Positions 17,472 to 32,812 are shown, counted from the first letter of the stretch. The stretch is 64,000 bases of DNA from Oscillospiraceae bacterium (GCA_902780785.1 CACZGS010000010.1:44363-108362), one strand, 5' to 3'. Program-made: numbers and translations. Notes: generated by a model not told the origin, from the letters alone.

Positions 17472-17494
17472 TTGATCTAATAAGCGTTTAATCG

Positions 17495-19417: not shown

Positions 19418-19547
19418 TTTTAATTTCCTCCGTATGATAACAGTTGTTCTACAGGCGTAGATTCTACAAACGTAGAACAACCTTACGAGCGTCATTCTAC
19501 ATTTGTAGAAAACGGATGTCAATAGTTTTTTCTACATTTGTAGAATT
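19379..19547 (-). repeat. Copy 1 of a near-identical ~170-bp promoter/leader/signal-peptide cassette (partner at 29597-29765)
   Basis: Base-by-base comparison with 29597-29765 shows 2 mismatches (CTACAGGCG versus CTATAGACG). Identity falls to about 75-85 percent further into the coding region, down to about 19230 and 29447. Confidence 0.9.
19462..19545 (-). promoter_or_regulatory. L1 promoter with three BlaI/MecI/CopY-type operators
   Basis: The minus strand reads TTCTACAAATGTAGAA-N7-TTGACA-17 nt-TAGAAT. Operators lie at 19530-19545 (upstream of -35), 19495-19510 (overlapping the spacer and -10) and 19462-19477 (in the leader). Each is a perfect 16-bp palindrome with a TACAnnnnTGTA core. Confidence 0.75.
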
Positions 19548-20239: not shown

Positions 20240-21131
20240 CTGCTTTTCTGCCGGTCAGCCTGATCACTATTCCTGCACTCACCAGGAACGAACCGGAAAA
20301 CAGGAGTACCGGAACAGGCCAGTCGATCTGTCCCGTCTGGATGAGTTTCTCTGTATTTGTCACCGTAAATTCGTATCCTTCGGAAGAATATGTTGCCGTA
20401 TAGTTCTTTGGAATATCTGTCTCTTCGACAGACCACTTTTTGCTTGCATCAAGCTTTTCCCATGTATGCTTCCATGAGTTTTGTCCGCTGAGCCTTACCG
20501 TATCATAGATGCCGTCTTCATTAATAAGCCTTACACTTACATAGTCAGGCCGGTTCAGGCCGTTATCGTTCCAGATTTTTTTAACAGAGACATCAACAGG
20601 CGGCAGATATTCGATCTTGGGCTCGGCAACGCCGTCATATATCCAGACCAGTGAATCGTAATCATAGTGCGGAAGGAAATAAAGGAAAGGAACAAAAGAT
20701 GTAAATCCTTCCGGAAGGCTTTTAGCCGTTATCAGATACACTCCTGCCGTAAGCCCGTCGAAAACAACACCGCCATCTTCACCGGATCTTTCAGAGATAC
20801 CGGTGATGTTATTGTTTCCGGCATATTTGACGAGATCGTCCACCATCGACTGGGTAATGTTGTCATCAAGATCCAGTCTTGTCTCGGCAAAATCATCGTC
20901 GAGCACATAATCGATCCCTCTGGATGTAAATGTGGCTTTTGCAATAAGATAAGCCGTTACTTCGGCACCTGCAGCGGTCCTGCCGTTCTCACCGGGTGTC
21001 TTAAGAGTCATTGAAAGGCTTAAGTTTCTGCCGGGATCAGGCTTTTCAGCAGCGAGTACTCTTGCAGGGAAAAAGAAAAGAATCGCAGTCAATAATAGAG
21101 CTGCCCAGGCAGTTTTATTTTTTCTTGCCAT
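20229..21131 (-). CDS. Cna-B-domain minor/basal pilin with a non-canonical sorting signal (LIQTG)
   Basis: 300 aa with a signal peptide (...ARVLAAEK) and a Cna-B-like module VSVKKIWNDNGLNRPDYVSVRLI. The C-terminus reads KLIQTGQIDWPVPVLLFSGSFLVSAGIVIRLTGRK (motif, hydrophobic stretch, basic tail). Confidence 0.8.
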   Translation of the reverse strand: MARKNKTAWAALLLTAILFFFPARVLAAEKPDPGRNLSLSMTLKTPGENGRTAAGAEVTAYLIAKATFTSRGIDYVLDDDFAETRLDLDDNITQSMVDDLVKYAGNNNITGISERSGEDGGVVFDGLTAGVYLITAKSLPEGFTSFVPFLYFLPHYDYDSLVWIYDGVAEPKIEYLPPVDVSVKKIWNDNGLNRPDYVSVRLINEDGIYDTVRLSGQNSWKHTWEKLDASKKWSVEETDIPKNYTATYSSEGYEFTVTNTEKLIQTGQIDWPVPVLLFSGSFLVSAGIVIRLTGRKADEK

Positions 21132-21942
21132 GTTCTTTCCTCCTTTCTGCGATGAACGTGATCACCACTATCGCAATAAATGCCGGCACGGCCATAACAG
21201 TCGCCACAGTAATACTGTTTACCTTAAATGCCTCGCCTGACACGAATATGCCGGGTGAGCTTTTCGCGCTTCCCACTCTGACGCCTCTTACAAGCAGACG
21301 GTGGGTATTGATACCGTAAGGTGTGCAGGTGACAAGTGTGCAGTAATCCTTGCCGTCATCAATGGTCAGATTAGATACATCCTCCGGAAGCACCGTCCTG
21401 ATCTGATCGACTTCGTAAGTCAATACCCTGTCAAGCACGGTGATCCTGAACCTGTCTCCCACTTCCATCTTATCCAGATCCGTAAAGAGCCTTGCCGACG
21501 GAAGACCTCTGTGACCGGACAGGACACAGTGTGTTCCCGGGCCTCCGACCGGAAGCGAAGAGCCTTCGATATGGCCTACGCCTATCTGAAGTACTCCGTC
21601 ATCGACTCCGTGATAGACCGGGAGTTCGACTCCGATCTTATCTATGTCGATATAGCCCATTATTCCGGTGCCGGTTATATTGAGTGTATCGTTATATCCC
21701 GTTACTCCTGACGGATTGAAAAACGAAGCCCTGCCTTCCCTTAAATATTCATTGTACTGTTCGGCAGAAACTATCATCTGCTCGCGCCTTTCTATGTCTG
21801 TGTTGACATAGACCTCGTTGTACCTGGATATTTCGGCCGCAGAATGCTTTGAGTTGATAAAATCGCTGACGGTAGGATAAAGGAGCAGTCCAAGGCCTCC
21901 CGCGATCAGTACAACTATCAAAACATTAAGCAGCTTATTCAT
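21115..21942 (-). CDS. srtC: Class C (pilin-polymerising) sortase
   Basis: 275 aa with N- and C-terminal TM segments. Motifs: VLSGHRGLP (His), TLVTCTPYGINTHRLLVRG (Cys/Arg). Confidence 0.9.
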   Translation of the reverse strand: MNKLLNVLIVVLIAGGLGLLLYPTVSDFINSKHSAAEISRYNEVYVNTDIERREQMIVSAEQYNEYLREGRASFFNPSGVTGYNDTLNITGTGIMGYIDIDKIGVELPVYHGVDDGVLQIGVGHIEGSSLPVGGPGTHCVLSGHRGLPSARLFTDLDKMEVGDRFRITVLDRVLTYEVDQIRTVLPEDVSNLTIDDGKDYCTLVTCTPYGINTHRLLVRGVRVGSAKSSPGIFVSGEAFKVNSITVATVMAVPAFIAIVVITFIAERRKEHGKKK

Positions 21943-21954
21943 ATTCCAAGTTTA

Positions 21955-23697
21955 TTATGCGTTATCAGATCCGGTCTTCTTCTTTATTACGACCAGAGCT
22001 GCACCGGCTGCGAGAAGAGCAGCACCTGCGGCATAGAAACCAACTGTACCGATGCCGCCCGTCTCAGGAAGAGATGAGGTCTTCTTGTTTACGACTTCAA
22101 GGACCACATACTGATCTCCCTGGGCTACTGTTGTGTCAGTGCCGTCGATCTTGTATGTCCATACAGGCTTCTTGTTCGTGCTGTCATAAGCAAATGTGAT
22201 CTCAAGACTGTGAGGTGTCTTGTCTAATGTATAACCGTCAGGTGCCTTAGTCTCCTTGATGGTATAAGTTCCGGCTCCAAGTCCCGTAAGAACAAGCTCA
22301 CCGTTATCATCTACTTCGATAGTTGTATCCGTAGCATCGATATTCTCGACAATAACGCTGTCCCTTTCGACGGGAACATATTTTGTATCTGTCGAATCAT
22401 ACTTATTCTGCGTCTGAGCCGTAGGTGCCGTATCGGTATATGTGCCATCCTTTAACTTGTAGAAAGTACCTGTTGCGCTTACTTCATACTCTGTCTTGGT
22501 TACGATGACCTGCTTGCTCTGAGTTCCTTCAACATGGAATTCTGCTCCGACAAGGGGATTTCCATCCTTATCGATCTTCTTAACCTTGGCACCTGTAGTG
22601 TAAGTTACTGTCTGAATGTCAGGAGACTTACCCGTAACATCACCGTTGCCGGGTTTGTCGCTGGTATATGTGTGTGAAGGGTCATTTGAATAAGTAAGGC
22701 CGGCAGTATTGGGGTTGCCTGCATCAGTTGTTACAGCCTTCTCATTTAGCTTTGCCTTATATGTAACAGTTATATCCTCACCGATATAATCTGTATCCGT
22801 ACCATAATCAAGGAAATCCTTAAATACGATCTCAATGGAATTGGTTGCCGAATCGAATGTGAAATCATAATCACCGGCAGTTAATGTCTTAGAGCCGACC
22901 GTGATAACAGGCTTGTTGTCTGTTGCACTTGTTCCGATGTAATCAAAACCTTCGCTCAAAGTATCGTTCATTACGAAGCAATACTTGTTATAACCCTTAT
23001 CAGTCAGGTCAGGAACCGTAGAAGAGAGCTTAAATGTGATCTCATCGCCTACGCTTGCCTCGTTGTACTTCTGCTCATTGCCTTCGACTACGATATTCTT
23101 ATCCAAAGAAGGTACTACTTCCTTGGTGTTGATCGTAAGGTTTGTTGCCTGGTTTACGACCATGAGCATAAATTTGGACTCTGCACCGTCAACTACGGGC
23201 GAGGATGTTATCTCGTCTTTTACAAGGTAGTATCCGAACCCGGAAGCAAGAGTTACATCTTTCTGTGTATCGGATGCACCAAGCTCTGCTGTCGTAACAC
23301 TTGGATCAGATGATGCGACCGTCTTTCCTGCAATGAATGTCGCGAATCTGTCAACGAGTTCTGTGTCGTTATTGGTGTTAGCTTCCTCCAATACTTCAAG
23401 AAGAGCGTTAAGATCATCGCAGCTGTCAAATCCGTCAACAGCCTTAAGAGCTGTATAGAAAGCCGCATCAGGCTCAGTTACGCCTTCGCCCCATTCAATG
23501 TCATAAAGATCATCATTATCATCAACTTTTACGGAGAAGATCTGATAGAACTCATAACTATGGGCAGACTTATCATTGCTGTCACTCTTTTTGATCGTTA
23601 CTTTGGGATTCTCAGCGGCAAGCGCCATGGTTCCGATCATCATTACCATGACTGTTGCTACGATCGCTGATATCGTTTTTTTCATCAGTTTCATCAT
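21955..23697 (-). CDS. Major (backbone) pilin, LPXTG-anchored
   Basis: I set the start at ATG 23697 (MMKLMKKTISAIV...). Features: pilin-motif-like VVPSLDKN, E-box-like YTIKETKAPDGY, sorting signal LPETGG followed by a hydrophobic stretch and KKKTG. Confidence 0.85.
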   Translation of the reverse strand: MMKLMKKTISAIVATVMVMMIGTMALAAENPKVTIKKSDSNDKSAHSYEFYQIFSVKVDDNDDLYDIEWGEGVTEPDAAFYTALKAVDGFDSCDDLNALLEVLEEANTNNDTELVDRFATFIAGKTVASSDPSVTTAELGASDTQKDVTLASGFGYYLVKDEITSSPVVDGAESKFMLMVVNQATNLTINTKEVVPSLDKNIVVEGNEQKYNEASVGDEITFKLSSTVPDLTDKGYNKYCFVMNDTLSEGFDYIGTSATDNKPVITVGSKTLTAGDYDFTFDSATNSIEIVFKDFLDYGTDTDYIGEDITVTYKAKLNEKAVTTDAGNPNTAGLTYSNDPSHTYTSDKPGNGDVTGKSPDIQTVTYTTGAKVKKIDKDGNPLVGAEFHVEGTQSKQVIVTKTEYEVSATGTFYKLKDGTYTDTAPTAQTQNKYDSTDTKYVPVERDSVIVENIDATDTTIEVDDNGELVLTGLGAGTYTIKETKAPDGYTLDKTPHSLEITFAYDSTNKKPVWTYKIDGTDTTVAQGDQYVVLEVVNKKTSSLPETGGIGTVGFYAAGAALLAAGAALVVIKKKTGSDNA

Positions 23698-23744
23698 TTT
23701 GTTGTTCCTTTCATTTATAATTTTTCTTTTTTTGATTTCATAAT

Positions 23745-26700
23745 TCATTTCGCATATCCGCCTCCTTCGCACCGCCTTTTAATCAGCAGGATAAGTGCGC
23801 CTCCGATCATGAGCGTTCCTGCGGCTATGAACGGAGCTATGCCCGGCCCGCCTGTATTTGGCAGGCTGAAGATAACACTGTTTGTAAACTTAAATGTGTA
23901 GTTGTTGTTAAACTCCTTAACATCAGCCATGAGCATGCCGCCGGTGTTGGGGATCTCCGTTACTTCCACCGTGACATCGTATACGGAGTTGTCGTATCTG
24001 ATTCCCGCCTGGTGATCATCTTTTTCTCTGATATAGAATCTATATATTCCGGGATGATTGAACTGGAGCCTCTCGAAAAGCACCTTTCCCTCTGCGTTAT
24101 TTACTTCAGTGACTACCTTATCAGTATTCCTGTCCACGAGCTCGAAAGTGAAATCCCCGCCACGGAGGACACCGTTTGTAAGTTCCTTCGTAGCACCAAA
24201 CTGCACCGATGCAGTATTGGCATGAACTGTAAAGTCAAGGCCGGAATGGTTAGGACACTTGTTATATGCATCGATTACATATCTCTTATCAAGTTTGAAA
24301 ACCTGGCTGTCAATCCTTTCGACGATATCATCAAGCTCTCCGTCCGTAACCGTTACAACACCGTTTACGGTCTTCGTATATTTGCGGTTCGGATAATCAG
24401 GCGTATATACAACAGTCTCCTCAGCCATGATTTCCCACTCGCCTGTTGTACTGTTGTATTTATACTTTTCGATCTTTGTCGGAGCTATCTGAAGACTGAC
24501 ATCGAAAACAACATGATCAGTATCCTTATAACGGAAATGTTTGTTGTTCGTGATATAGTCATCATGATACTTGGAAGTAAGTTCGTACTGGGAATCTCCC
24601 GGGCCGAATCTCGGATCAGACCAGTAATCATCGGAATCAAAGCCGTTGTCCGGAAGAGGCGTGGCATTTGTGATCTGCCAGTTTTGATCAGACTGGGTCT
24701 CGAAGAACGGCGTGGGATTGCCGTTTTCATCATATATCCTGCAGCTGTTAACGCCCGAAACATATGACTGATACTCGGTAACCGTCTTTATCATTCCGGT
24801 ATCATCGCCAAGTTCAAAACTTACGGAAGTATAAACACCGCCGTCTGCGATCTCGATATCCGCATGATCCAATATCTCATAGTAATCAGTATTCTCATTG
24901 TGATAATCGTAATTTACGACTACGTTTATCCTCTTCATTACCCCGTTTTGCGTCCAAAAACTGACCTGCTGGGTATTATTCCCGCTGGTGTAATTTTCAG
25001 CACGGCAGGTAACGCTCCTTACACCGTATGCTTCTTCGCTCTCATTTTCGAAAGCCGAGAGTAAACCTCTGTCCTGACCGCCTTCGATATAAGGCCAGTC
25101 ATAGTCTTCACCGTATCTGTTGGGAGTTCCTTTAAAGACTATCGTGTCACCGTAATTGACATAAACGGTGTCACCGTCATTATGCTGATCAAAATCAATA
25201 ACATCTGTCTCGCTATCTCTTCTGATTACACGGATCGAGAAATCCTGATCGAGATCCGTGTTGCCACGGTATAAAGATACCGCACAGCTTCCGCCGTTGG
25301 GCTGTGAGGAAATACCGGTTATAGTGGCACGTACTTCGGTAGGAGTGGAGCTTGTCTCATTGATACTTACGACTTCGCCCATCCAGTTTAAATTTTCATA
25401 GAACCTGATATGAAGGTTCTCGCCATTGGCATCTGCCGGATCTATCCTGCCTATAAGTTCTAACGTATCTCCTTCCATCAATACATAAGGGAAATTCGGG
25501 GAATTCTTAATAGTGTCACCTGCAAGATCCGTTTCGGGATTTACGTTGACGGCATTATCAAGATATGCGTGAACTTTGTCTTTGTCTTTTTCACCGGTTG
25601 CGGTAACAACATAGATGGAGAATCCGTCAGTGGTAAATGCAGCTTCCGAAGATGAGACCTCAGCTCCTTCCACTACGGAAACCTTCTGGCCATCGATATG
25701 AAGAAGATCATAGGTCTGACCTTCTGGCTGTCTGGATTCAGGGATCTTTATGCTTACATCAACTGTTGTGCCTTCTGCGGGCTCCACTTTATTGCCTTCA
25801 GCATCAAAAAACGAGATATCAACGGCAACCATGCCCTTGATCTCTTTGCCGTCTCTGACAGTCTGCTCTGCAAGGGCCTTTACCTTGCTGTTTGCAATAT
25901 CAGATGCGTTCATTGTCGTTCCTTCCGGGAACGCACCATAAGGTGCTGACGCATTTACGGTTATTCCTGAACCGGTAACCGCTTCAAATTCCAAAGGATT
26001 CTTAACAGGATCTTCCGGTGCATCCGCTCCGTCCTGTACATCATCCGTATTTTCCGTGCTTTCCGTATTCTCTCCGGCATCTTCAGATACGGCGGGCTCC
26101 GTCTCTTCAGTGGTCTCAGTAGTTTCAGCCGGCTCAGTTGTTTCCTCTGTTTCTTCTGCAGGTTCACTCTCATTTGAATCAAGCCTGTTTACGGAAACAT
26201 AACCATAAAGAACCGCATCGGAGATCCGGTAAGACTTAACGGCTACAACGCCGTCTATATCGCCTTCCATAACACTTATGTCGTTGTCATTAATGTTTAT
26301 TATGATGCCTGTTAAGTCGCACTTGCCGTCCCCGTCATTATCAATAAGGATAAGATCTCCCATCTTGGGCATTACGGTAAAGTCCTTAATAAGAAGTCCT
26401 GCTTCGTCAAGTTTTACCTGCCATGCCCAGCAGCCGGAACCGTAAGGGATATCCTTTTCGGAGATCTTTGAATAGTGCAGGCAGAATGAAACGAACATTA
26501 CATTCCAGTCACCCGTGGGATTTCCGTACCATGCACCGTATCTTGTATATCCGTCCGGTTCTTCTTTGTAATCAAGCTGTGAAGAAGCAGTGTTCACGAG
26601 GCTTTGAGCCTTCTTTGCAACAGGTTTGGGGAGCTTTGACTCCCACTCTGACTGACATTCCTTTTTAGAGACTTCAGCAGGCCTGCAGCTGTCAGTATGG

Positions 26701-26996
26701 GTATGTTCATCAAGACCGCATGTCAATACGCGGTTATAGCAATTCTCATCATGAATATGCTCAGGATCTGTTTCTGAGCATATCAGCTGCTCCTCATAGC
26801 ATTCGTCAGAATGAGTGTGCTCTGAAAGACCGCATGTATATTCATCGGCAAGAGCCACACCGGTATTCCTGAGAGTCCAGAAGACATTGCCTGAAAGTAC
26901 AATGGACACTGCAAGGAACAAAGCCATCGAGCGGTTTCTCGCCTGATGCCTCCTGTTAAGCCAATTTATGTAACCCTCAATACGTTCCTTTTTCAC
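23745..26996 (-). CDS. Large LPXTG-anchored pilus tip adhesin candidate
   Basis: 1083 aa. N-terminal CGL.EHTH.D.C repeats, then a CHAP/NlpC-P60-like segment, an acidic Glu/Thr linker, a C-terminal pilin isopeptide-type domain (FELVDRNTDKVV...YRFYIREKDD), and the sorting signal LPNTGG. Confidence 0.8.
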   Translation of the reverse strand: MKKERIEGYINWLNRRHQARNRSMALFLAVSIVLSGNVFWTLRNTGVALADEYTCGLSEHTHSDECYEEQLICSETDPEHIHDENCYNRVLTCGLDEHTHTDSCRPAEVSKKECQSEWESKLPKPVAKKAQSLVNTASSQLDYKEEPDGYTRYGAWYGNPTGDWNVMFVSFCLHYSKISEKDIPYGSGCWAWQVKLDEAGLLIKDFTVMPKMGDLILIDNDGDGKCDLTGIIININDNDISVMEGDIDGVVAVKSYRISDAVLYGYVSVNRLDSNESEPAEETEETTEPAETTETTEETEPAVSEDAGENTESTENTDDVQDGADAPEDPVKNPLEFEAVTGSGITVNASAPYGAFPEGTTMNASDIANSKVKALAEQTVRDGKEIKGMVAVDISFFDAEGNKVEPAEGTTVDVSIKIPESRQPEGQTYDLLHIDGQKVSVVEGAEVSSSEAAFTTDGFSIYVVTATGEKDKDKVHAYLDNAVNVNPETDLAGDTIKNSPNFPYVLMEGDTLELIGRIDPADANGENLHIRFYENLNWMGEVVSINETSSTPTEVRATITGISSQPNGGSCAVSLYRGNTDLDQDFSIRVIRRDSETDVIDFDQHNDGDTVYVNYGDTIVFKGTPNRYGEDYDWPYIEGGQDRGLLSAFENESEEAYGVRSVTCRAENYTSGNNTQQVSFWTQNGVMKRINVVVNYDYHNENTDYYEILDHADIEIADGGVYTSVSFELGDDTGMIKTVTEYQSYVSGVNSCRIYDENGNPTPFFETQSDQNWQITNATPLPDNGFDSDDYWSDPRFGPGDSQYELTSKYHDDYITNNKHFRYKDTDHVVFDVSLQIAPTKIEKYKYNSTTGEWEIMAEETVVYTPDYPNRKYTKTVNGVVTVTDGELDDIVERIDSQVFKLDKRYVIDAYNKCPNHSGLDFTVHANTASVQFGATKELTNGVLRGGDFTFELVDRNTDKVVTEVNNAEGKVLFERLQFNHPGIYRFYIREKDDHQAGIRYDNSVYDVTVEVTEIPNTGGMLMADVKEFNNNYTFKFTNSVIFSLPNTGGPGIAPFIAAGTLMIGGALILLIKRRCEGGGYAK

Positions 26997-27000
26997 TTTT

Positions 27001-27633
27001 TCATCCCAAAGGCCATACCTTGCCTAATACCTTGCCGACGATCTGATCTTTTTCCACGCATCCGATAACGGAGCTTCTGCTGTCTATGGAAGTATCTCTT
27101 TGGTCTCCCATCACGAAAAATCTTCCTTCAGGAACTGTATAAGGAAAATCAATATCACATTCACCCAGACTCTTTTCGCTTACATAAGGCTCATCTATGA
27201 GTTCGCCGTTAATGTAAACATTTCCCTTTTCATCGATATCCACGGAATCTCCGGAAATGGCGATTACACGTTTAATAAGCAGTTTGTTTTGCCATGCAAC
27301 ACAGCAGAGCTGTCCTGTACGGTAATCGCCGGCATGAAGAAGAACCAGTACGTCGCCGTCAGAAAGCGTCGGCTCCATGCTGTTTCCGGACACCTGGATC
27401 ACCGGCAGAAGATATGTCGACAGTAAAACGGCAACAGCTGCAACTACAGCCAGCAATCCGACTGCAGTAAACGTTGCACGCCTTATCCTTGCGCGTTTTC
27501 TTAGTCTTTTCCGTTCCTCAGTAACTTCTTTCGGATCGAGTCTTTTGCGTGACGGATCTTGTTCATTCATCATGTTATAAACAACATCCACTAACTCTTT
27601 CCGGCTTAAGTTCTTCAGGTTTTCCTTTTTCAT
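27001..27633 (-). CDS. Signal peptidase I (S26), pilus-operon associated
   Basis: 210 aa. GNSMEPTL (catalytic Ser), LIKRVIAISGD (catalytic Lys) and GDQRDTSIDSR are all present. It is the first gene of the pilus operon. Confidence 0.88.
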   Translation of the reverse strand: MKKENLKNLSRKELVDVVYNMMNEQDPSRKRLDPKEVTEERKRLRKRARIRRATFTAVGLLAVVAAVAVLLSTYLLPVIQVSGNSMEPTLSDGDVLVLLHAGDYRTGQLCCVAWQNKLLIKRVIAISGDSVDIDEKGNVYINGELIDEPYVSEKSLGECDIDFPYTVPEGRFFVMGDQRDTSIDSRSSVIGCVEKDQIVGKVLGKVWPLG

Positions 27634-27773: not shown

Positions 27774-27798
27774 GAAAAAAGCTGTCTGAAACAGCTTT
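27774..27798 (-). terminator. Terminator after lipoprotein L2
   Basis: The minus-strand hairpin AAAGCTGTTTCAGACAGCTTT is followed by TTTTC. Confidence 0.7.
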
Positions 27799-27834: not shown

Positions 27835-29634
27835 TTATAATGGTTCGGCAAGGCTTAACAAAGCCTTATATACCCAGTGATTGTCATTCTCGTCATAGAA
27901 CTCGTTAAGCAAAGGTTCGGAGCTTACTCTGATGACGGTACCTGTAACACTTTCTGTAATATCCGTGTATGTTACTTCGTTAAACTCGGTGAAATTGATC
28001 TGACTGCCGGCCTTGATCGTATACTTCTCGGTTGTTGCTTTTCCGTTCTTGACAACATAACCTGTCAGGTCCTTGGCTGCTTTTACTTTGACGCTTAAAT
28101 TTACATAGCATACTGTATCTGCGATCACCGGCATGCCGTTAGCTGATGCCTTATAGTATCTGGTGATGCCGATCATTCCGTTCATGCCGTCATTCTCATA
28201 GCAAATGAACTTGTCGGCACTTGATGGATTTGATTCAAGATACATGCCTTCATGGTGACCGATAAACTTGATCGAGCTGTCATTTACTTCGTAAACATTG
28301 ATGTCACGAAGATCTCCGTCCATGCAGGATGTTACGTAGATAAATGCCTTGCCGTTGGTCTTAACAAGGTAAGTGCTGCCGATCCTCAATCCTGAATTAT
28401 CAGTGTGTACGGGAAGAACATAAGCATGTCTGTTATACATGATCTGGATCTTCTGACTGTCTATATTATTCTCAACTACAAATGAGCCGTATGCTGATTC
28501 AAGTACACGCTTTTTGGATTCTGCCTGGAAGGTCATTATACGTCCGTTGCCCAACGCTCCAACGGTTCCGGCCTTCTCTTCATCAAAATCCTTGGCGATC
28601 TCGAAAATACTGAAGAAAGCGTTGGTTTTGTTGTTCTTACCGAACATATCAAAGTAATACTTACTGTTAAGTCTGATGACAGTACCGTTTTGTAATGCTA
28701 CATCGATATAATTTTCCATATCTGTTCCGATAAGTCTAACAACATCACCTCTATTGACGGTCTTTAATTCACTGGTTACTTTTCCGTTTCTTACGGCCTG
28801 ACCGCTGTAATCCACCTTGATCCTTGAAGGAGATGTGTTATAAAGGCTGTGCACATTATTTGCAAGCACCGGCATGCCGTTATTACCGACTTTATAATAT
28901 CCGTGCATTACGAACATGTAATTACGTCCGCAATGTTCATAGCAGGAAAACGAATCGATAGATTCAATCGAATCAGTATAAAGATTCTCATAACATCCGA
29001 CATACTTTACGGATTCATCATCAAGAGAATAAACATTGGTCTCGCAAATATCTCCGCCGTGCATTGCGCAGATGTAGAGGTATGCCTGACCGTCTTTCTT
29101 CAACAGGAATGCTTCGCATATTCCGAGTTCAGAGTTCCTGATGGGGAGCTCAAAGCCGTGATCTTCGACCTGGATCCATACTTTTGCTGAAGATTTAGAT
29201 AAGGGATAGAAAAACATATACCCCCAGCCTTCATTATCAGTATATCTTACATCATCGTTGCCTCTTCTTAACTTTAAGACAGAACCGTCCTTAACGGATG
29301 CTATCGCACCGGGCTTCTGAGTTTCATAAGCCTTAGGGGTTGTCACAGGAATATCACTCTCTTGTGTATCTGTTATCTCATCGAAATCATCGTCCGGTAA
29401 AACAACCGTGGGATCAATAATATCATCTGCATTTACACCCTGCTGCTTTACCGTAATGCTTGAAGCAAGCGCTTCATCATTGATAACGACATTTCCGATG
29501 GGGGTTCCGTCTGCCATCTTGATCTCTGCCGTGCATCCGGAAGCCGTGACCGCAATGGCACTTGAAAGGATAACAGCTGCAAGTGCTGATCCGTTGATTC
29601 TGCCTCTCTTAATAGGGTTTGCTATAAACTTCAT
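27835..29634 (-). CDS. Lipoprotein L2, paralog of L1 (two divergent copies of the same ~230-aa domain)
   Basis: The start is at ATG 29634 behind GGAGG. The N-terminal ~60 aa are nearly identical to L1 (MKFIANPIKRGRINGSALA...TASGCTAEIKMADGTPIG). The domain signature is retained (e.g. NVYEVNDSSIKFIG, FICYENDG, YYKASANGMPVIAD, ...YDENDNHWVYKALLSL). Confidence 0.85.
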   Translation of the reverse strand: MKFIANPIKRGRINGSALAAVILSSAIAVTASGCTAEIKMADGTPIGNVVINDEALASSITVKQQGVNADDIIDPTVVLPDDDFDEITDTQESDIPVTTPKAYETQKPGAIASVKDGSVLKLRRGNDDVRYTDNEGWGYMFFYPLSKSSAKVWIQVEDHGFELPIRNSELGICEAFLLKKDGQAYLYICAMHGGDICETNVYSLDDESVKYVGCYENLYTDSIESIDSFSCYEHCGRNYMFVMHGYYKVGNNGMPVLANNVHSLYNTSPSRIKVDYSGQAVRNGKVTSELKTVNRGDVVRLIGTDMENYIDVALQNGTVIRLNSKYYFDMFGKNNKTNAFFSIFEIAKDFDEEKAGTVGALGNGRIMTFQAESKKRVLESAYGSFVVENNIDSQKIQIMYNRHAYVLPVHTDNSGLRIGSTYLVKTNGKAFIYVTSCMDGDLRDINVYEVNDSSIKFIGHHEGMYLESNPSSADKFICYENDGMNGMIGITRYYKASANGMPVIADTVCYVNLSVKVKAAKDLTGYVVKNGKATTEKYTIKAGSQINFTEFNEVTYTDITESVTGTVIRVSSEPLLNEFYDENDNHWVYKALLSLAEPL

Positions 29635-29765
29635 TTTTAATTTCCTCCGTATGATAACAGTTGTTCTATAGACGTAGATTCTACAAACGTAGAACAACCT
29701 TACGAGCGTCATTCTACATTTGTAGAAAACGGATGTCAATAGTTTTTTCTACATTTGTAGAATAT
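29597..29765 (-). repeat. Copy 2 of the ~170-bp promoter/leader cassette (partner at 19379-19547)
   Basis: See copy 1. The two copies are direct repeats 10.2 kb apart that bracket the L2 body and the whole pilus operon. Confidence 0.9.
29679..29762 (-). promoter_or_regulatory. L2 promoter with three BlaI-type operators
   Basis: Same architecture as L1. Operators lie at 29747-29762, 29712-29727 and 29679-29694. The -35 TTGACA is the complement of 29734-29739, and the -10 TAGAAT overlaps the middle operator. Confidence 0.75.
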
Positions 29766-29790
29766 TTTTTGAATTCTTTTCCAGGGCACG

Positions 29791-29814
29791 AAAAAGGGGA
29801 GCTCAAAGCTCCCC
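29791..29814 (-). terminator. Terminator after the blaI-blaR1-like operon
   Basis: The minus-strand hairpin GGGGAGCTTTGAGCTCCCC is followed by TTTTT. Confidence 0.75.
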
Positions 29815-29842
29815 TGAAAGCATTGATTTTATTATGTTTGCG

Positions 29843-32362
29843 TTATGCAGGTTCGAACCAGTCCACTATGGCATTGTAGACCCAGCGGTAGTTATTGCTG
29901 TCGTAGAATCTGTCTTTCTGGTCTTTGAAGTTTACCTGGAGCACTGTGCCGTCTTCTTTTTGAATTATGATAACGTCCTTTTCATCTGTTTTTACCGGAG
30001 TTACTTTCTCACCTACATATATGTAGATTAAATTGTTTTTATAGATGGTGCCGTTTATCATCAGATAGCCGCACAGATCAACCTTGCTCTTTAAAGGCAT
30101 CTTCACGTTGAAGCATGTATACATCAGGTAGGTATCAGGTGCCGGCATTCCTGTTGTTTTGGACATCGAGTAATTTCTCCTCACATCAACGACCGCATTT
30201 TCCCCATAGTTTTCAATGATCCAGAATGTTCTGGGATTATCGACTGCTCTTTCGAATGTGGCGTTATTAACCGCTCCTTTGAAGAAAACACCGTTATCAA
30301 AGACATTGTATGCACAGATCTGGTTCCCGCCTTCAACGTAGAACTGAATAAAGATGTTCGCCTTTCCGTAATCTTTCAGCAGGTAGATTCCTCCGGTGCT
30401 CGTTGAAGGAATTGCATATTCAAATGACTTGTCCTTAATAGTGAAGCGCACCACTTTCTCCGGGAGGATCCTGCAAACGATACTTCCAAATTCTCCTGAG
30501 ACAGTAAAAGTGGAATTGTTGCTCTCGTTCACAAACGGAATGACCGTAAAATCCTTTATCTTGCTTATCGAAAGCAGCTTATCCTCTGCAGGTACCGTTG
30601 TTTCAACAGGTGTTGTGGTCTCAGAAGCAGTAGCAGCCGTTGTCTCTTCCGTCGTCTCTGTTGTCTCGGAAACAGCCGGGTCATCCGAGATATTTGACGG
30701 GATCTTGGTTCCGCCGGAAGTCTTCTGGCCATTCAGGATCTCAATAGCCTTATCAGGACCGACTTTGCCGGTTATCACTTCGGCTTCGCGGCTTCTGAAA
30801 AACTCTTTATATTCATTCTGCGTGACACTCTTTCCGTCTATTGAAAACGAAGTTCCCTCAAAATAGCCGTCAGCTTTAGGCTTTGCACCTGTCATAAGAT
30901 CATTCATGGAATAGAGCTTAGCTTCAGCCAGCTCACCCTGGGTCAGTATAACGTGATGAATAATAAAGTCTTCAAAAGGAACGTAGTGATAAGACTCACT
31001 TGAATCCATATAAACACCGTCCTCAAAGACAGGCAGTACCTTTCCGTTTCTGAATGTATAGAGACTTACCAGATCGTTCGCTCCCTCTGTCGGTCTTTCC
31101 GTAACAAGCTCAGGGATCAGATCATCATCAACATAGATAAATGCATACTTATAAAACAGCTTGTTGCCCTGATTGTCATATCCGGTCTTTCTGATCAGTT
31201 CAATATACGGATCGATAAATGCGGAACTCCATCTCCTGGAGTTTGTTGTCTCGGCTGTGGTCTCGGACGGTTCAGATTCTGTAGTCTCAGACGCAATAAC
31301 AGCACTCTCTTCGGGCTCTGCGGGCTTCTCTCTTACCCACGGCTGGTGATCAATAGAAGATGCGGATACCAGAAGTGAGAAGACAAGCGTAACGCAGATG
31401 GAAGCTATCTGGATCTCTCTTGACGATATCTTATGGGACAGGAGATTCTTGATCCTCATCTTGGTCTCCATGCCTCCGAAGCTCAGGCCGCTGAATGCAG
31501 TGCTCTGCATGAATGCGCCCTTATTGTCGTCAGCTGCATGTCTTACGAGGGACTTACAGTATTCCTTTACCATCGAAAGGTTGAAATTGCTCGTGGTCTC
31601 CTCATCAACACGCATTTCGATATCTGCGCAGAGCATGAAGAAGGCGAGCCATACGAGCGGATTGAACCAGTGAATGCAGAGCACGATGTAGCTTAAGAAC
31701 TTTGTAAGTCCGTCCTTATTCTTTATGTGCGTCCACTCATGATTAAGGACATATTCGCGCTCGTCGTCATCCATGTTGATCGGGAAAAAGATCTTCGGAT
31801 TGATGATGCCTACGACAAAAGGCGAATCAATATCATTTGCCATGTAATATCTTCCGTCGAAGGAGCGAGAACTCCATCTCGCCCTTGAATAGAAGATCGC
31901 ATATCTTATTGCTGAGAAAATCAGCATGCCAACCATAACGGTGAGCCAGATATAAGGAAGAATGGTCTTAAAGGTAACCTTCGGAGCCTGCTCTGTTACG
32001 GCGGGCGCAGGCACTTGCTCTGCAGTTCCGTTATCAATAACCGCAATGTCGGATTCAGGTGTCTGCTCTATGACCTCAGGCATGGTATCAACCACCGCGA
32101 TCTCTCTTAATCTCGTCTCCGGATCGTAGGTCGTGGGCTCTGCCGACACTGTCTTCGGCTGCATGAACTTGCCGAAGTTAAGGATGCTCGTCGGCGAATT
32201 GAAATTGAACGGCAGTACCAGCCTTAACGCAACTATGATCCAGAAAAGGATCATGACCTTCTTGGGGCATTTCTTGAAGATCAGTCTGAACAACAGCACG
32301 ACCAGTATGGCAATACTGCCGTACAGGCTCATCTCCAATACTTTGGAAAATATATAACTCAT
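29843..32362 (-). CDS. BlaR1/MecR1-family M56 sensor-protease with a non-PBP C-terminal sensor domain
   Basis: 839 aa. Multi-TM N-terminus typical of M56 and the zinc motif NHEWTHIKNKD. The Thr/Glu-rich linkers are extracytoplasmic. The last ~235 aa are homologous to the L1/L2 repeat (…YGKANIFIQFYV…NVFDNGVFFKG…YSMSKTTGMPAPD…VLQVNFKDQKDRFYDSNNYRWVYNAIVDW). Confidence 0.85.
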   Translation of the reverse strand: MSYIFSKVLEMSLYGSIAILVVLLFRLIFKKCPKKVMILFWIIVALRLVLPFNFNSPTSILNFGKFMQPKTVSAEPTTYDPETRLREIAVVDTMPEVIEQTPESDIAVIDNGTAEQVPAPAVTEQAPKVTFKTILPYIWLTVMVGMLIFSAIRYAIFYSRARWSSRSFDGRYYMANDIDSPFVVGIINPKIFFPINMDDDEREYVLNHEWTHIKNKDGLTKFLSYIVLCIHWFNPLVWLAFFMLCADIEMRVDEETTSNFNLSMVKEYCKSLVRHAADDNKGAFMQSTAFSGLSFGGMETKMRIKNLLSHKISSREIQIASICVTLVFSLLVSASSIDHQPWVREKPAEPEESAVIASETTESEPSETTAETTNSRRWSSAFIDPYIELIRKTGYDNQGNKLFYKYAFIYVDDDLIPELVTERPTEGANDLVSLYTFRNGKVLPVFEDGVYMDSSESYHYVPFEDFIIHHVILTQGELAEAKLYSMNDLMTGAKPKADGYFEGTSFSIDGKSVTQNEYKEFFRSREAEVITGKVGPDKAIEILNGQKTSGGTKIPSNISDDPAVSETTETTEETTAATASETTTPVETTVPAEDKLLSISKIKDFTVIPFVNESNNSTFTVSGEFGSIVCRILPEKVVRFTIKDKSFEYAIPSTSTGGIYLLKDYGKANIFIQFYVEGGNQICAYNVFDNGVFFKGAVNNATFERAVDNPRTFWIIENYGENAVVDVRRNYSMSKTTGMPAPDTYLMYTCFNVKMPLKSKVDLCGYLMINGTIYKNNLIYIYVGEKVTPVKTDEKDVIIIQKEDGTVLQVNFKDQKDRFYDSNNYRWVYNAIVDWFEPA

Positions 32363-32387
32363 AACACTCTATCCCTGAAATTGTTCC

Positions 32388-32759
32388 TTATTCTTCCGTA
32401 TGCTGTTCGATCATGTCGATAAGACTCTGGGCATCTTCCTTGCTCATCTTCTTGCCGCCGCCTAAGAAAGCATTAACGAACATCGGCAGAGAACCCTTGA
32501 AGTTCTTCTCGACGAGTTCCTCGCTCTGCTGCTTCTGGAGTTCATCGCGTCCTATCAGATATGTGATAGTGGACTTCTCGCTCTGGATAAAGCCCTTATC
32601 CTGGAGTCTTTTGAGCATTGTATAGACCGTGGTCTTCTTCCAGCCGTGGATCATCTCACACATCGTGGATAACTCGCCCGATGCGATCGGTGAATACTCC
32701 CAAATGATCTCCATCAACTTATATTCGCTGTCACCAATAGATGTTTCTTTCATATGCAT
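32388..32759 (-). CDS. blaI: BlaI/MecI/CopY-family winged-helix transcriptional repressor
   Basis: 123 aa. The pattern SEYKLMEIIWE....SGEL......GWKKTTVYTMLKRLQDKGFI matches the penicillinase-repressor family. It lies immediately upstream of the M56 gene. Confidence 0.88.
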   Translation of the reverse strand: MHMKETSIGDSEYKLMEIIWEYSPIASGELSTMCEMIHGWKKTTVYTMLKRLQDKGFIQSEKSTITYLIGRDELQKQQSEELVEKNFKGSLPMFVNAFLGGGKKMSKEDAQSLIDMIEQHTEE

Positions 32760-32783
32760 ATTTCCCCTTATACGTTTTTCAAC

Positions 32784-32812
32784 ATTCTACAAGTGTAGAA
32801 TTAAGATGTCAA
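32784..32812 (-). promoter_or_regulatory. Autoregulated blaI promoter with one BlaI operator
   Basis: The minus strand reads TTGACA, a 17-nt spacer, then TAGAAT. The palindrome TTCTACACTTGTAGAA (32785-32800) overlaps the spacer and -10. Confidence 0.7.

What the first reader, a model, noticed from the sequence alone, without database searches (positions are those of the whole stretch)
29843..32812. BlaI/BlaR1-type signalling module whose sensor is the lipoprotein domain rather than a penicillin-binding domain
A 123-aa BlaI/MecI/CopY-type repressor is followed by an 839-aa protein with the multi-TM M56 protease module (zinc motif HEWTH). In BlaR1/MecR1 the extracellular C-terminus is a PBP/class-D-like beta-lactam sensor. 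Here the extracellular part consists of Thr/Glu-rich linkers, an unassigned middle domain, and a terminal ~235-aa domain homologous to the repeats of lipoproteins L1 and L2.

The regulon visible in this window has perfect TACAnnnnTGTA-core palindromes over three TTGACA-17-TAGAAT promoters. It comprises exactly blaI-blaR1 itself and those two lipoprotein genes, which flank a pilus operon.

This looks like a self-contained sense-and-respond circuit: an unknown extracellular ligand is sensed by domain X, and proteolytic inactivation of the repressor follows. Secreted proteins made of the same domain X are then produced, possibly to bind, sequester or degrade the inducer. M56 proteins with alternative sensors are known to exist, but I am not aware of this particular architecture being described.
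Basis: partly seen in the sequence, partly recalled or inferred. Interest (0 to 1): 0.85.

Follow-up and report, generated by a model that had tools for sequence, protein, structure and literature searches.

The report
BlaI/BlaR-type switch controlling novel surface lipoproteins
A rumen Clostridia bacterium carries a repressor-plus-membrane-protease switch of the kind that normally detects penicillins, but its outside sensor is an unknown all-beta domain copied from the surface lipoproteins it controls, so it almost certainly senses something other than antibiotics; what it senses is still unknown.

Summary
blaI (32388-32759, -) and an 839-aa M56 protease (29843-32362, -) form an operon. The protease keeps HEWTH, ExxxD and the Ser-Phe autocleavage site. 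Its ectodomain has no penicillin-binding fold: it is linker, domain M, linker, domain X. X (~250 aa) is homologous to the two repeats in each of lipoproteins L1 and L2.

Nine TTCTACA-NN-TGTAGAA boxes lie only on three TTGACA-17-TAGAAT promoters: one at blaI, four at L1, four at L2.

In ten further loci fetched from related rumen MAGs and metagenome contigs, blaI, sensor, boxes and lipoprotein recur. The pilus operon is a box-free insertion present in only three of the loci examined.

X and M have confident AlphaFold models but no Pfam, PDB or viral match.

The sensor half is mosaic. X types are swapped between near-identical M56 bodies. Sister systems carry M+Y sensors with M+Y lipoproteins, or a C-type lectin sensor with five X lipoproteins.

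Non-penicillin BlaR proteins are already known to be the majority. What I found no description of is this domain family and the recurrent sensor/output paralogy. The ligand and the "sequester the inducer" idea remain untested. I classify it as a new variant of a known kind, of moderate to high interest.

The parts
32784..32812 (-). blaI-blaR promoter: -35 TTGACA (32812-32807), 17-nt spacer, -10 TAGAAT (32789-32784). One BlaI box, TTCTACACTTGTAGAA (32785-32800), overlaps the -10.
   Evidence: The same single box lies upstream of blaI in L001, L003, L004, L084, L085 and L170.
32388..32759 (-). blaI: 123-aa BlaI/MecI/CopY-family winged-helix repressor.
   Evidence: Pfam PF03965 E 1.4e-22, above cut-off. 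Aligns to MecI structures 1sd6 and 1okr at E 5e-7.
29843..32362 (-). M56 sensor-protease, 839 aa. Hydrophobic segments at aa 11-29, 36-54, 134-152, 226-244 (within the protease domain) and 319-337. The ectodomain is aa ~338-839.
31445..32344 (-). M56 peptidase region (aa 7-306). It contains HEWTH (aa 208-212, nt 31727-31741), E249xxxD253, and S294-F295, which aligns with the BlaR1 autocleavage site. The outer loop EL1 (aa ~55-133) carries the motif YDPETRLRE.
   Evidence: PF05569 E 2.4e-41. Alignment to S. aureus BlaR1 8exp. These residues are invariant in 16 sensors.
30677..31237 (-). Ectodomain module M (aa 376-562; motif DDDLIPELV). It is optional: some X-type sensors lack it.
   Evidence: AlphaFold model pLDDT 82.7, pTM 0.80. 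No PDB match by fold or by sequence. Absent in P0086, P0091, P0110 and P0121. An M-like module also occurs in the L005 and L006 lipoproteins.
29846..30595 (-). Ectodomain module X (aa 590-839), all-beta, 'type A'. It is a paralogue of the lipoprotein repeats.
   Evidence: BLASTP 4e-23 and 4e-16. AlphaFold pLDDT 93.5, pTM 0.87. No PDB or viral fold match. dN/dS 0.18-0.28.
29795..29815 (-). Intrinsic terminator after the sensor gene.
   Evidence: 9-bp stem, 6 GC pairs, followed by a T run.
29664..29762 (-). L1 promoter-operator: -35 at 29739-29734, -10 at 29716-29711. Four BlaI boxes, core 14-mers at 29748-29761, 29713-29726, 29680-29693 and 29665-29678 (the last with one mismatch).
27835..29634 (-). 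L1: 599-aa lipoprotein (lipobox ...VTASG|C) with an acidic linker and two X domains. It is 'L1-type', orthologous to the lipoproteins of L001, L004, L165 and L166.
27775..27798 (-). Weak hairpin plus T run after L1 (aaagctgt-ttcag-acagcttt). It marks the left edge of the pilus cassette.
   Evidence: The same sequence starts the cassette in L004 and L001.
19622..27633 (-). Context only, not part of the regulon: an inserted sortase-pilus cassette. It encodes an S26 signal-peptidase-like protein, a 1083-aa tip pilin, a 605-aa backbone pilin, a sortase, a 300-aa minor pilin and a second sortase.
   Evidence: Pfam. No BlaI box. Absent from L003, L164, L165, L166 and L167.
19447..19545 (-). L2 promoter-operator: -35 at 19522-19517, -10 at 19499-19494. 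Four BlaI boxes, core 14-mers at 19531-19544, 19496-19509, 19463-19476 and 19448-19461. The promoter and 5' UTR are nearly identical to those of L1.
   Evidence: The ~380-nt duplicated segment is 95-100% identical across the promoter.
17561..19417 (-). L2: 618-aa lipoprotein with two X domains. It is 'L2-type' and is the probable native output gene at this chromosomal position.
17494..17525 (.). Bidirectional-looking terminator hairpin after L2.

Best explanation
This is a chromosomal BlaI/BlaR-type regulated-proteolysis switch. It belongs to a clade found so far only in uncultured Clostridia, mostly from ruminant rumen or gut where the record names a source. It is not a beta-lactam sensor.

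Proposed steps:
1. In the resting state, BlaI dimers occupy TTCTACA-NN-TGTAGAA boxes. One box covers the -10 of the blaI-blaR promoter. Four boxes flank and cover each near-consensus lipoprotein promoter. L1 and L2 are therefore tightly off, and the sensor is autoregulated.
2. The 839-aa M56 protein is built like BlaR1: hydrophobic segments matching its membrane helices, a cytoplasmic gluzincin with HEWTH and ExxxD, and a Ser-Phe autocleavage site.
3. On long Thr/Glu-rich tethers it displays a novel ectodomain, module M plus the all-beta module X.
4. An unknown extracellular cue engages X. The cue is possibly a glycan or a surface macromolecule. Engagement may displace the conserved outer loop EL1, as happens in BlaR1.
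5. The protease is activated and BlaI is cleaved. L2 and L1 (the latter acquired together with the pilus cassette) are then produced in bulk.
6. Each lipoprotein displays two X domains on a similar tether. Because X in the sensor is a paralogue of X in the output, the output most likely binds the same class of ligand. That would capture or neutralise the ligand and damp the signal.

Shown here: the gene content, motifs, homology, operator layout, their conservation, and the modular evolution.

Inferred: DNA binding, proteolysis, and above all the nature of the ligand and the shared-ligand feedback.

Confidence is about 0.85 for the core circuit and about 0.4 for the shared-ligand step.
For: Core circuit:
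- Pfam PF03965 and PF05569.
- HExxH, ExxxD and Ser-Phe align to S. aureus BlaR1 8exp and are invariant in 16 homologues.
- The repressor aligns to MecI.
- Nine boxes sit on three promoters, against 0.82 hits expected.
- The same layout (one box at blaI, two to four at the lipoprotein gene) holds in relatives whose ectodomain is down to 26% identical to this one.
- Canonical mechanism: BlaR1 cleaves BlaI directly, and ligand displaces EL1 from the sensor (PMC9834060).

Not beta-lactam:
- No TP or PBP hit.
- NCBIfam blaR1_generic scores 87.5 bits against a 400-bit cut-off.
- X is modelled as almost entirely beta strands, pLDDT 93.5.

X is the obligate sensor part:
- M is missing in four X-type sensors, whereas X is always present.
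- X is under purifying selection, dN/dS 0.18-0.28.

Sensor-output link:
- X homology within the window.
- Type-B sensor X is closest (40-44%) to repeat 2 of its neighbouring L1-type lipoprotein.
- L005 and L006 carry an M+Y sensor with an M+Y lipoprotein (2e-45).
- Unrelated BlaI-M56 systems L138 and L123 have 59% and 57% identity between the sensor tail and a neighbouring lipoprotein.

Glycan hint: the sister system L170 has a C-type lectin sensor (PF00059 above cut-off).
Against: - No ligand is known, and nothing has been tested experimentally.
- Neither X nor M resembles any solved or viral structure, so there is no binding-site inference.
- The window's sensor X is only 21-28% identical to any lipoprotein X. 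Shared specificity is therefore not assured.
- Sensor and lipoprotein types reshuffle independently. Type-A sensors are 77-82% identical while their L2-type neighbours are ~42% identical. L1-type lipoproteins sit beside type A, A' and B sensors.
- L170 (lectin sensor, X outputs) and L085 (X sensor, two non-X 'Z' lipoproteins) show that paralogy is not obligatory.
- The MecI/BlaI Asn-Phe scissile pair aligns to Ala97-Phe98, with Asn96 one residue earlier. The cleavage site is therefore not strictly conserved.
Confidence: 0.45

Rival explanations
1. Self-monitoring feedback. The sensor's X domain binds the X domains of the lipoproteins themselves (homotypic X-X contact) rather than an external ligand. 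Free lipoprotein would hold the protease off. Loss, shedding or ligand-occupancy of the lipoprotein would release it. The circuit would then keep the surface lipoprotein layer topped up. This is a CpxP/CpxA- or MgrB/PhoQ-style loop built on regulated proteolysis.
For: - The sensor ectodomain is a paralogue of the output in two different domain flavours, X and M+Y.
- The same is seen in the unrelated systems L138 and L123.
- Lipoproteins carry X in tandem pairs, which may pack against each other.
- Sensor and lipoproteins carry similar long tethers, placing X at a similar distance from the membrane.
- BlaR1 itself works as a dimer whose sensor contacts a loop of the partner (PMC9834060).
Against: - There is no co-evolution signal. 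Near-identical type-A sensor X domains sit beside lipoproteins only ~42% identical to one another, and L1-type lipoproteins sit beside three sensor types.
- L170 has a lectin sensor with X lipoproteins, and L085 has an X sensor with non-X lipoproteins.
- No complex prediction could be run here.
Confidence: 0.15
2. Opportunistic domain capture. The cue is an envelope or surface stress unrelated to what the lipoproteins bind. The sensor's ectodomain is simply whatever extracellular module recombination supplied from the adjacent gene. In that case X would serve in the sensor as a wall-spanning, displayed or anchoring module, and the paralogy would carry no information about the ligand.
For: - The gene is mosaic. 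dS is 1.7-2.6 in the M56 half but 0.17-0.56 in the X half between the same genomes.
- There is a sharp identity drop at aa ~590 between the window protein and P0018: 90-100% falls to 17-30%.
- Ectodomains of at least four architectures occur on one conserved M56 body: X alone, M+X, M+Y and C-type lectin.
- Adjacency favours such exchange.
- CenIR of C. difficile also controls an adjacent exported protein and responds to no identified inducer (PMC13492132).
Against: - X in the sensor is under purifying selection and is never lost, whereas M is dispensable.
- Independent recurrence of sensor/neighbour paralogy in unrelated M56 systems suggests selection rather than accident.
- In canonical systems the ectodomain is the ligand-binding element.
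Confidence: 0.25
3. Polymer sensing for adhesion or nutrient capture, rather than defence. X (and the lectin domain of sister systems) recognises a plant, host or microbial glycan. The induced X-lipoproteins, and in some strains the neighbouring pilus, would then attach the cell to that substrate. This is analogous to RsgI/SigI biomass sensing in Clostridium thermocellum.
For: - Where the record names a source, relatives come mostly from the rumen or gut of ruminants.
- L170 has a C-type lectin sensor with a GEPS...FICE signature.
- Weak beta-propeller or lectin-like fold echoes for X.
- A sortase-pilus cassette has inserted into this locus in three of the loci examined.
- RsgI sensors use carbohydrate-binding modules like those of the enzymes they regulate (PMC6852018 and PMC4711584, listed).
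Against: - The pilus cassette has no BlaI box and has its own conserved upstream region.
- No CBM, glycoside hydrolase or transporter lies in the module.
- The fold matches are all non-significant (E > 0.01, TM < 0.35).
- Irreversible repressor cleavage is more typical of stress responses. That last point rests on my own knowledge.
Confidence: 0.15

Closest known systems
BlaR1/BlaI and MecR1/MecI of Staphylococcus aureus and Bacillus licheniformis
   Same: - An M56 membrane gluzincin with HExxH and ExxxD, a Ser-Phe autocleavage site, and hydrophobic segments matching BlaR1's membrane helices.
- A BlaI-family winged-helix repressor.
- TACA-NN-TGTA dyad operators overlapping promoters, and autoregulation.
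- The expected signalling logic: ligand acts on the ectodomain, the EL1 loop is displaced, and the repressor is cleaved (PMC9834060).
   Different: - The ectodomain is not the class-D-beta-lactamase-like penicillin sensor. It is linker-M-linker-X, all-beta, with no known relatives.
- The output is surface lipoproteins, not a beta-lactamase or PBP2a.
- The Asn-Phe cleavage pair of the repressor is shifted.
- Four operators sit on each output promoter.
Atypical BlaIR systems: CenIR of C. difficile, PvmSR of P. aeruginosa, BlaIR of M. tuberculosis and M. abscessus
   Same: - M56 plus BlaI without a transpeptidase domain.
- CenIR has the same gene order, and an adjacent exported protein of unknown function is its most strongly induced target.
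- The ligand is unknown.
- About 94% of ~15,000 M56 proteins are of this non-TP kind (PMC13492132; bioRxiv 10.64898/2026.08.03.742534).
   Different: - Those sensors have short, largely unstructured tails or no sensor domain.
- Here the ectodomain is ~500 aa with two confidently folded modules.
- One of those modules is a paralogue of the regulated protein. That relation is not reported for the atypical systems in the papers read here.
C. difficile BlaRI controlling the blaXD operon (class D beta-lactamase BlaD plus the membrane protein/lipoprotein BlaX)
   Same: A BlaRI system derepresses an operon for cell-surface proteins (bioRxiv 10.1101/630020). BlaR-type sensor domains are related to class D beta-lactamases (PMC9834060). 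Sensor and output are therefore of one fold family there too. This is my inference from combining the two papers.
   Different: - There the shared fold is the well-known penicillin-recognising serine enzyme, and the ligand is known.
- The regulator is 11 kb away from its target.
- Here both the fold and the ligand are unknown.
RsgI/SigI polysaccharide-sensing anti-sigma factors of Clostridium thermocellum
   Same: A transmembrane sensor whose extracellular module is of the same kind as modules in the proteins it regulates (CBM, PA14 and GH domains). Signalling is by regulated proteolysis, in Clostridia (PMC10328401, PMC6852018 and PMC4711584, listed; details are from my own knowledge).
   Different: - It uses anti-sigma/sigma logic with RseP cleavage, not repressor cleavage by an M56 protease.
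- The domains are recognised carbohydrate-binding families.
Firmicutes lipoproteins with PdaC-N (DUF4163) plus DUF3298 followed by an X-like C-terminal domain
   Same: They are the only wider relatives of domain X: E 1e-10 to 1e-18 over profile positions ~45-225. They are lipoproteins of about 500-600 aa.
   Different: - The one genomic context examined had no M56 or BlaI nearby (L168).
- They are only distantly related.
- DUF4163/DUF3298 is the lysozyme-binding module of RsiV (my own knowledge). That makes this a lead, not a functional assignment.

Membership tests
BlaI/MecI/CopY repressors (Pfam PF03965) | N-terminal winged-helix DNA-binding domain plus C-terminal dimerisation helices, scoring above the family threshold | tested here: met
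   PF03965 at 80.6 bits against a 22.6-bit cut-off, covering aa 8-119 of 123. Aligns to MecI 1sd6 and 1okr at E 5e-7.
BlaI/MecI/CopY repressors (Pfam PF03965) | Asn-Phe scissile bond in the dimerisation domain (N101-F102 in BlaI and MecI) | tested here: inconclusive
   MecI 'LVLNF' aligns to 'FVNAF'. Phe98 is kept, and Asn is at 96 rather than 97.
BlaI/MecI/CopY repressors (Pfam PF03965) | Binds TACA-NN-TGTA dyads overlapping the regulated promoters | tested here: met
   Sequence level only. Nine TTCTACA-NN-TGTAGAA boxes lie on three promoters, against 0.82 hits expected. The layout is conserved in the related loci. Actual binding is not testable here.
M56 peptidases (BlaR1-like signal transducers) | PF05569 match with the HExxH zinc motif and the downstream ExxxD | tested here: met
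   142.3 bits against a 31-bit cut-off. HEWTH and E249xxxD253 align with BlaR1 8exp and are invariant in 16 homologues.
M56 peptidases (BlaR1-like signal transducers) | Four transmembrane helices with a cytoplasmic protease loop and an extracellular C-terminal domain; Ser-Phe autocleavage site | tested here: met
   Hydropathy peaks at aa 11-29, 36-54, 134-152 and 319-337, plus a further hydrophobic segment at 226-244 inside the protease domain. S294-F295 aligns to BlaR1 S283-F284. Topology is inferred, not measured.
M56 peptidases (BlaR1-like signal transducers) | Adjacent blaI gene | tested here: met
   blaI ends 25 nt upstream of the M56 start.
Beta-lactam sensors BlaR1/MecR1 sensu stricto | C-terminal penicillin-binding (transpeptidase/class-D-like, SxxK) sensor domain | tested here: not met
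   - No PF00905 or any other Pfam hit beyond aa 306.
- NCBIfam blaR1_generic 87.5 bits against 400, covering only aa 175-334.
- No PDB sequence hit for aa 345-839.
- The AlphaFold model of aa 590-839 is all-beta with no PDB fold match.
Bacterial lipoproteins (L1, L2) | Signal peptide ending in a lipobox with an invariant Cys | tested here: met
   MKFIANPIKRGR...AVTASG|C in both proteins. The same pattern occurs in all regulated lipoproteins of the related loci. No dedicated predictor was run.
Domain X (new, unnamed family) | A ~245-aa all-beta module matching the profile built from 24 copies | tested here: met
   Five copies in the window, E 1e-76 to 1e-99. Of 1.84 billion representative proteins, 465 score E <= 1e-3 and 34 score E <= 1e-30. 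There is no Pfam or NCBIfam model.
Sortase-dependent pilus locus (context) | LPXTG pilins, class C sortase and a SipA-like S26 protein; under BlaI control? | tested here: not met
   The components are present. However, there is no BlaI box, the cassette has its own upstream region, and it is absent from most related loci. It is a pilus locus but not a member of this regulon.

The most novel reading that the evidence does not exclude
M56/BlaI systems may repeatedly build their sensors out of their own output gene. The resulting 'like-senses-like' circuits would read the state of the lipoprotein layer itself (free versus engaged) through homotypic domain contacts, rather than reading a free ligand. 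That would be a previously unrecognised feedback logic for regulated-proteolysis signalling. It would also offer a general route to guessing what some of the atypical (non-penicillin-binding) BlaR proteins sense.
Probability: 0.15. Interest if true: 0.8.

Novelty: new variant of a known kind. Interest (0 to 1): 0.6.

Why it matters
Most BlaR-like sensors do not bind beta-lactams, and nobody knows what they sense (PMC13492132).

This clade offers a rare handle. The sensor's ectodomain is a folded, conserved module that also makes up the regulated surface lipoproteins. Whatever the lipoproteins bind is therefore a concrete candidate for the inducer.

The same sensor/neighbour paralogy turns up independently in other clostridial M56 systems.

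The locus also shows how such sensors evolve. A nearly invariant protease body carries ectodomain cassettes (X types A, B and C; M+Y; C-type lectin) that are swapped by recombination.

It adds two confidently modelled domain families with no structural relatives.

The main limitation is that the hosts are uncultured, mostly rumen or ruminant-gut bacteria. Tests need heterologous reconstitution.

Tried and rejected
1. PBP-like or class-D-like sensor. Rejected by Pfam, NCBIfam, PDB sequence searches and the fold model.

2. Pilus operon as part of the regulon. Rejected. It has no box, and it has its own conserved upstream region that begins at the hairpin after L1. In L004 it directly follows the sensor terminator. 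It is absent in five related loci.

3. Naming X or M by structure. Foldseek against PDB and BFVD gave only non-significant beta-propeller, lipocalin or OspA-like fragments (E >= 0.02, TM <= 0.35). Profile searches against PDB sequences gave noise.

4. Strict sensor-lipoprotein co-evolution. Only type-B sensors are closest to their neighbour's repeat 2 (40-44%). The window's type-A X shows no preference, and types reshuffle independently.

5. Obligatory sensor/output paralogy. Rejected by L170 (lectin sensor) and L085 (Z lipoproteins).

6. Nearby beta-lactamase as the real target. The Beta-lactamase2-family gene at 9372-10613 follows fhs by 6 nt and has no box.

7. The search for related loci with the X alignment failed because no stretch was conserved enough. 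The genome and metagenome scans with the sensor alignment returned mostly generic M56 loci. These served as a background set.

8. DUF3298+X-like lipoproteins as members of the circuit. There was no M56 or BlaI in the one context examined.

Full report
**1. What is in the window**

On the minus strand, a 123-aa ORF (32388-32759) and an 839-aa ORF (29843-32362) lie 25 nt apart.

- The first ORF is a BlaI/MecI/CopY repressor. It matches PF03965 at E 1.4e-22 and aligns to MecI structures at E 5e-7.
- The second ORF is an M56 peptidase, matching PF05569 over aa 7-306 at E 2.4e-41.
- Aligned to S. aureus BlaR1 (8exp), it keeps HExxH (HEWTH, aa 208-212) and ExxxD (E249, D253). It also keeps the Ser-Phe pair at the position of BlaR1's autocleavage site (S294-F295).
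- All of these residues are invariant in an alignment of 16 homologues.
- Hydropathy gives segments at aa 11-29, 36-54, 134-152 and 319-337, plus a hydrophobic segment inside the protease domain. That is the layout expected for BlaR1.

**2. The ectodomain is not a penicillin sensor**

- Beyond aa 306 there is no Pfam or NCBIfam domain. The blaR1_generic model scores 87.5 bits against a 400-bit cut-off and covers only aa 175-334. No PDB sequence matches aa 345-839.
- The region reads as a Thr/Glu-rich linker, a module I call M (aa ~376-562), a second linker, and a module I call X (aa ~590-839).
- AlphaFold2 models X with pLDDT 93.5 and pTM 0.87, as an almost purely beta structure. M is modelled with pLDDT 82.7 and pTM 0.80.
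- Neither model has a significant Foldseek match. X was searched against the PDB and the viral library, M against the PDB only. The best E is ~0.02 with TM below 0.35, and the hits are propeller, lipocalin or OspA-like fragments.
- Profile searches against PDB sequences give only noise.

**3. The lipoproteins**

- The ORFs at 27835-29739 and 17561-19522 start, as real genes, at MKF codons (29634 and 19417). They have a lipobox (...VTASG|C).
- Each carries two X domains.
- The sensor's X matches L2's repeats at 4e-23 and 3e-21, and L1's repeats at 4e-16 and 1e-12, with 26-30% identity.
- An HMM of X finds exactly these five copies in the window.

**4. Promoters and operators**

- The three best sigma-70-like sites in the 16.5-kb region scanned are TTGACA-17-TAGAAT. 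They lie upstream of blaI, L1 and L2.
- The dyad TTCTACA-NN-TGTAGAA occurs once at blaI, overlapping the -10. It occurs four times at each lipoprotein promoter: upstream of the -35, over the -10, and twice downstream, spaced 35/33/15 bp.
- The search gave 18 strand-hits against 0.82 expected. The only other hit is a one-mismatch site inside dnaX.
- The promoter and 5' UTR of L1 and L2 are 95-100% identical over about 150 nt. The coding regions have diverged.
- Good terminators follow the sensor gene, the last sortase gene and L2. A weak hairpin follows L1.

**5. The pilus operon is a passenger**

- Between L1 and L2 lie genes for an S26 signal-peptidase-like protein, three LPXTG pilins and two sortases. 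No box lies there.
- In relatives the locus sits at a fixed chromosomal position. On one side are AMP-binding and ABC transporter genes, SCIFF with its radical-SAM maturase, and an Orn/Lys decarboxylase. On the other side are an unnamed 280-aa gene, HI0933-like, divIC, recR, ybaB and dnaX.
- Five loci (L003, L164, L165, L166, L167) have blaI, the sensor and lipoprotein gene(s), and no pilus genes.
- The cassette occurs only in the window, L001 and L004.
- In L004 it follows the sensor's terminator directly. It starts at the same hairpin and upstream sequence that follow L1 in the window.
- The window is best read as a type-A sensor with an L2-type lipoprotein, into which an [L1 + pilus] segment was inserted. 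The insertion duplicated the lipoprotein promoter and 5' end.

**6. The pairing recurs, and the family is narrow**

- Word-indexed searches found 37 sensor clusters and 42 lipoprotein clusters. All were unnamed and carried no Pfam domain other than M56.
- Every sensor cluster with a complete C-terminus has one full X copy. Every full-length lipoprotein has two.
- An exhaustive profile search of 1.84 billion representatives found 465 proteins at E <= 1e-3 and only 34 at E <= 1e-30.
- The close hits are X-X lipoproteins, M56-X sensors and single-X lipoproteins.
- The distant hits are ~500-600-aa Firmicutes lipoproteins with DUF4163/DUF3298 followed by an X-like end. In the one context examined they sit in tandem pairs without M56 or BlaI.
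- Among 185,579 species genomes, only one representative (Ruminococcaceae MAG RUG12748, L004) has an M56-X sensor. Its closest relatives L005 and L006 come from yak rumen and water-buffalo reticulum.
- The same box layout is found in L001, L003, L004, L084 and L085, even where the ectodomain is only 26% identical to the window protein.

**7. The sensor is modular and mosaic**

- In the alignment of 16 sensors the M56 half is nearly invariant while the ectodomain diverges. M is absent from four sensors, but X is always present.
- X falls into types:
  - Type A: the window, L084, L164 and L167 (77-93% identical to each other), with L165 as a 55% variant.
  - Type B: L001, L166 and L004.
  - Type C: L003 and L085.
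- The types are only 22-30% identical to each other. This holds even between proteins whose first 300 residues are 90-100% identical. There is a sharp break at aa ~590.
- Among type-A orthologues, dN/dS is 0.06-0.09 for the M56 half with saturated dS (1.7-2.6). For X, dN/dS is 0.18-0.28 with dS of only 0.17-0.56.
- The ectodomain is therefore functional, but it has been exchanged far more recently than the body of the gene.

**8. Sensor/output paralogy beyond X**

- In L005 and L006 the same kind of BlaI, boxes and M56 body carries M plus a different terminal domain, Y. The box-preceded downstream lipoprotein consists of an M-like module plus Y. The match is 30% identity across the whole ectodomain, E 2e-45.
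- Type-B sensor X is closest (40-44%) to repeat 2 of its neighbouring L1-type lipoprotein.
- I tested the C-terminal tail of every M56 protein in the 164 sequences in hand (163 fetched loci plus the window) against its neighbours.
  - Twelve of 155 ORFs gave a hit.
  - Outside the focal clade there were three loci: L138 (59% over 496 aa, to the downstream lipoprotein), L123 (57% over 301 aa, to a lipoprotein with BspA-type LRRs) and L114 (31% over 90 aa, to a secreted beta-helix protein).
  - Each of the three has blaI directly upstream.
  - Among loci with 3 kb of flank on both sides, that is 2 of 62.
- The pattern is uncommon overall but recurrent. It is dominant in this clade.

**9. Counter-examples**

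- L170 and L171 have the same BlaI boxes and M56 body, but the ectodomain is a C-type lectin domain (PF00059, 24.2 bits against a 22.6-bit cut-off). Five single-X lipoprotein genes surround the pair, and two of them carry paired boxes.
- L085 has a type-C X sensor followed by two box-preceded lipoproteins with a different domain, which I call Z.
- Sensor types and lipoprotein types also assort independently. The window's type-A X is 77-82% identical to the X of L084, L164 and L167, yet their neighbouring L2-type lipoproteins are only ~42% identical to window L2. L1-type lipoproteins sit beside A, A' and B sensors.
- X-lipoproteins are therefore the common output of the clade. Paralogy is frequent but not required, and there is no one-to-one co-evolution.

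**10. Mechanism**

By homology, the core is a BlaR1-like switch. In BlaR1, ligand at the ectodomain displaces the outer loop EL1, the protease is activated, and it cleaves BlaI directly (PMC9834060). Here EL1 carries a motif, YDPETRLRE. The motif is conserved in X-type sensors, including those without M, and is absent from Y-type and lectin-type sensors. It is a candidate intramolecular partner of X.

I commit to the following model:
- An unknown extracellular cue acts on X.
- BlaI is inactivated.
- L2 and L1 are strongly expressed.
- Their X domains bind the same class of ligand and feed back on the signal.

The core is well supported (about 0.85). The shared-ligand step is an analogy, with probability about 0.4.

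The analogy has a precedent. BlaR-type sensor domains are related to class D beta-lactamases, and C. difficile BlaRI controls a class D enzyme.

The rivals are homotypic self-monitoring, opportunistic domain capture with an unrelated cue, and glycan sensing for adhesion.

**11. Comparison with what is known, and novelty**

- Atypical BlaIR systems are established: CenIR, PvmSR and the mycobacterial BlaIR. Only about 6% of ~15,000 M56 proteins have a transpeptidase domain. The finding's headline of an alternative sensor is therefore not new in itself.
- I found no description of three things in two full-text searches:
  1. Domain families X and M.
  2. This clade's lipoprotein regulon.
  3. The recurrent derivation of the sensor ectodomain from the regulated neighbour.
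- I rate it a new variant of a known kind. It has real value as a lead for the open question of what atypical BlaR proteins sense. That value is tempered by the lack of any ligand clue and by uncultured hosts.

Noticed in passing
window 34308-34454 (+) and 34527-35909 (+): A canonical SCIFF peptide gene (MTRIVTIETRDLEKSAKEGGCGECQTSCQSACKTSCGVANQPCEQLKK) lies next to its radical-SAM/SPASM maturase. Both sit beside the blaI module in all syntenic relatives.
   Followed up: partly
window 9372-10613 (+): A Beta-lactamase2-family (PF13354) protein is encoded 6 nt after formate-tetrahydrofolate ligase (7692-9365). It is conserved in synteny in L164 and L167. It has no BlaI box, so it is not a target of this BlaI.
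   Followed up: partly
window 19175-19553 and 29392-29770: A direct repeat of ~380 nt covers the lipoprotein promoter, four operators, the 5' UTR, the signal peptide and the first ~40 mature residues. It is 95-100% identical across the promoter and decays into the coding region. It brackets the inserted L1 + pilus segment.
   Followed up: yes
L001 14395-14397 (also L002): The L1-type lipoprotein carries an in-frame TAA where the window has Asn (CYV*LSV versus CYVNLSV). This truncates the second X domain. It is seen in two independent assemblies.
   Followed up: partly
L004 10001-12092: In the only GTDB species genome with an M56-X sensor, the sensor gene is split into two overlapping reading frames (10001-11368 and 11334-12089). 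This is either a frameshift or an assembly error. The gene also lacks module M.
   Followed up: no
L170 1355-8258 (and L171): A sister BlaI-M56 system has a C-type lectin ectodomain (GEPS...GFICE). It is surrounded by five single-X lipoprotein genes, and the same BlaI boxes occur in pairs before two of them.
   Followed up: yes
L138 9564-14403; L123 3322-9744; L114 517-4813: Three unrelated clostridial blaI-M56 systems have a sensor tail homologous to a neighbouring lipoprotein or secreted protein: 59% over 496 aa, 57% over 301 aa, and 31% over 90 aa. Their operators differ from the TTCTACA box.
   Followed up: partly
window sensor aa 79-87 (nt ~32102-32128): The outer-loop motif YDPETRLRE is conserved in X-type sensors, including those lacking M. 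It is absent in Y-type and lectin-type sensors. It may be the counterpart of the BlaR1 EL1 segment that docks into the sensor domain.
   Followed up: partly
window L1 aa 35-60, L2 aa 35-60; L003, L085, L170 lipoproteins: All box-regulated lipoproteins share a similar signal peptide and a conserved start of the mature protein (C-T-x-E-[IVF]-K/x...DG), whatever domains follow: X-X, single X, M+Y or Z.
   Followed up: no
L168 4142-7609: The distant X-like domain occurs at the C-terminus of DUF4163/DUF3298 lipoproteins. These are encoded as a tandem pair next to ffh, rpsP, rimM and trmD, with no BlaI or M56 nearby.
   Followed up: partly
L085 3830-6405: Two box-preceded lipoproteins (362 and 423 aa) carry an unassigned domain with a YRYIDCG-DG-ELL motif reminiscent of module M's DDDLIPELV. 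The M profile does not detect it.
   Followed up: partly
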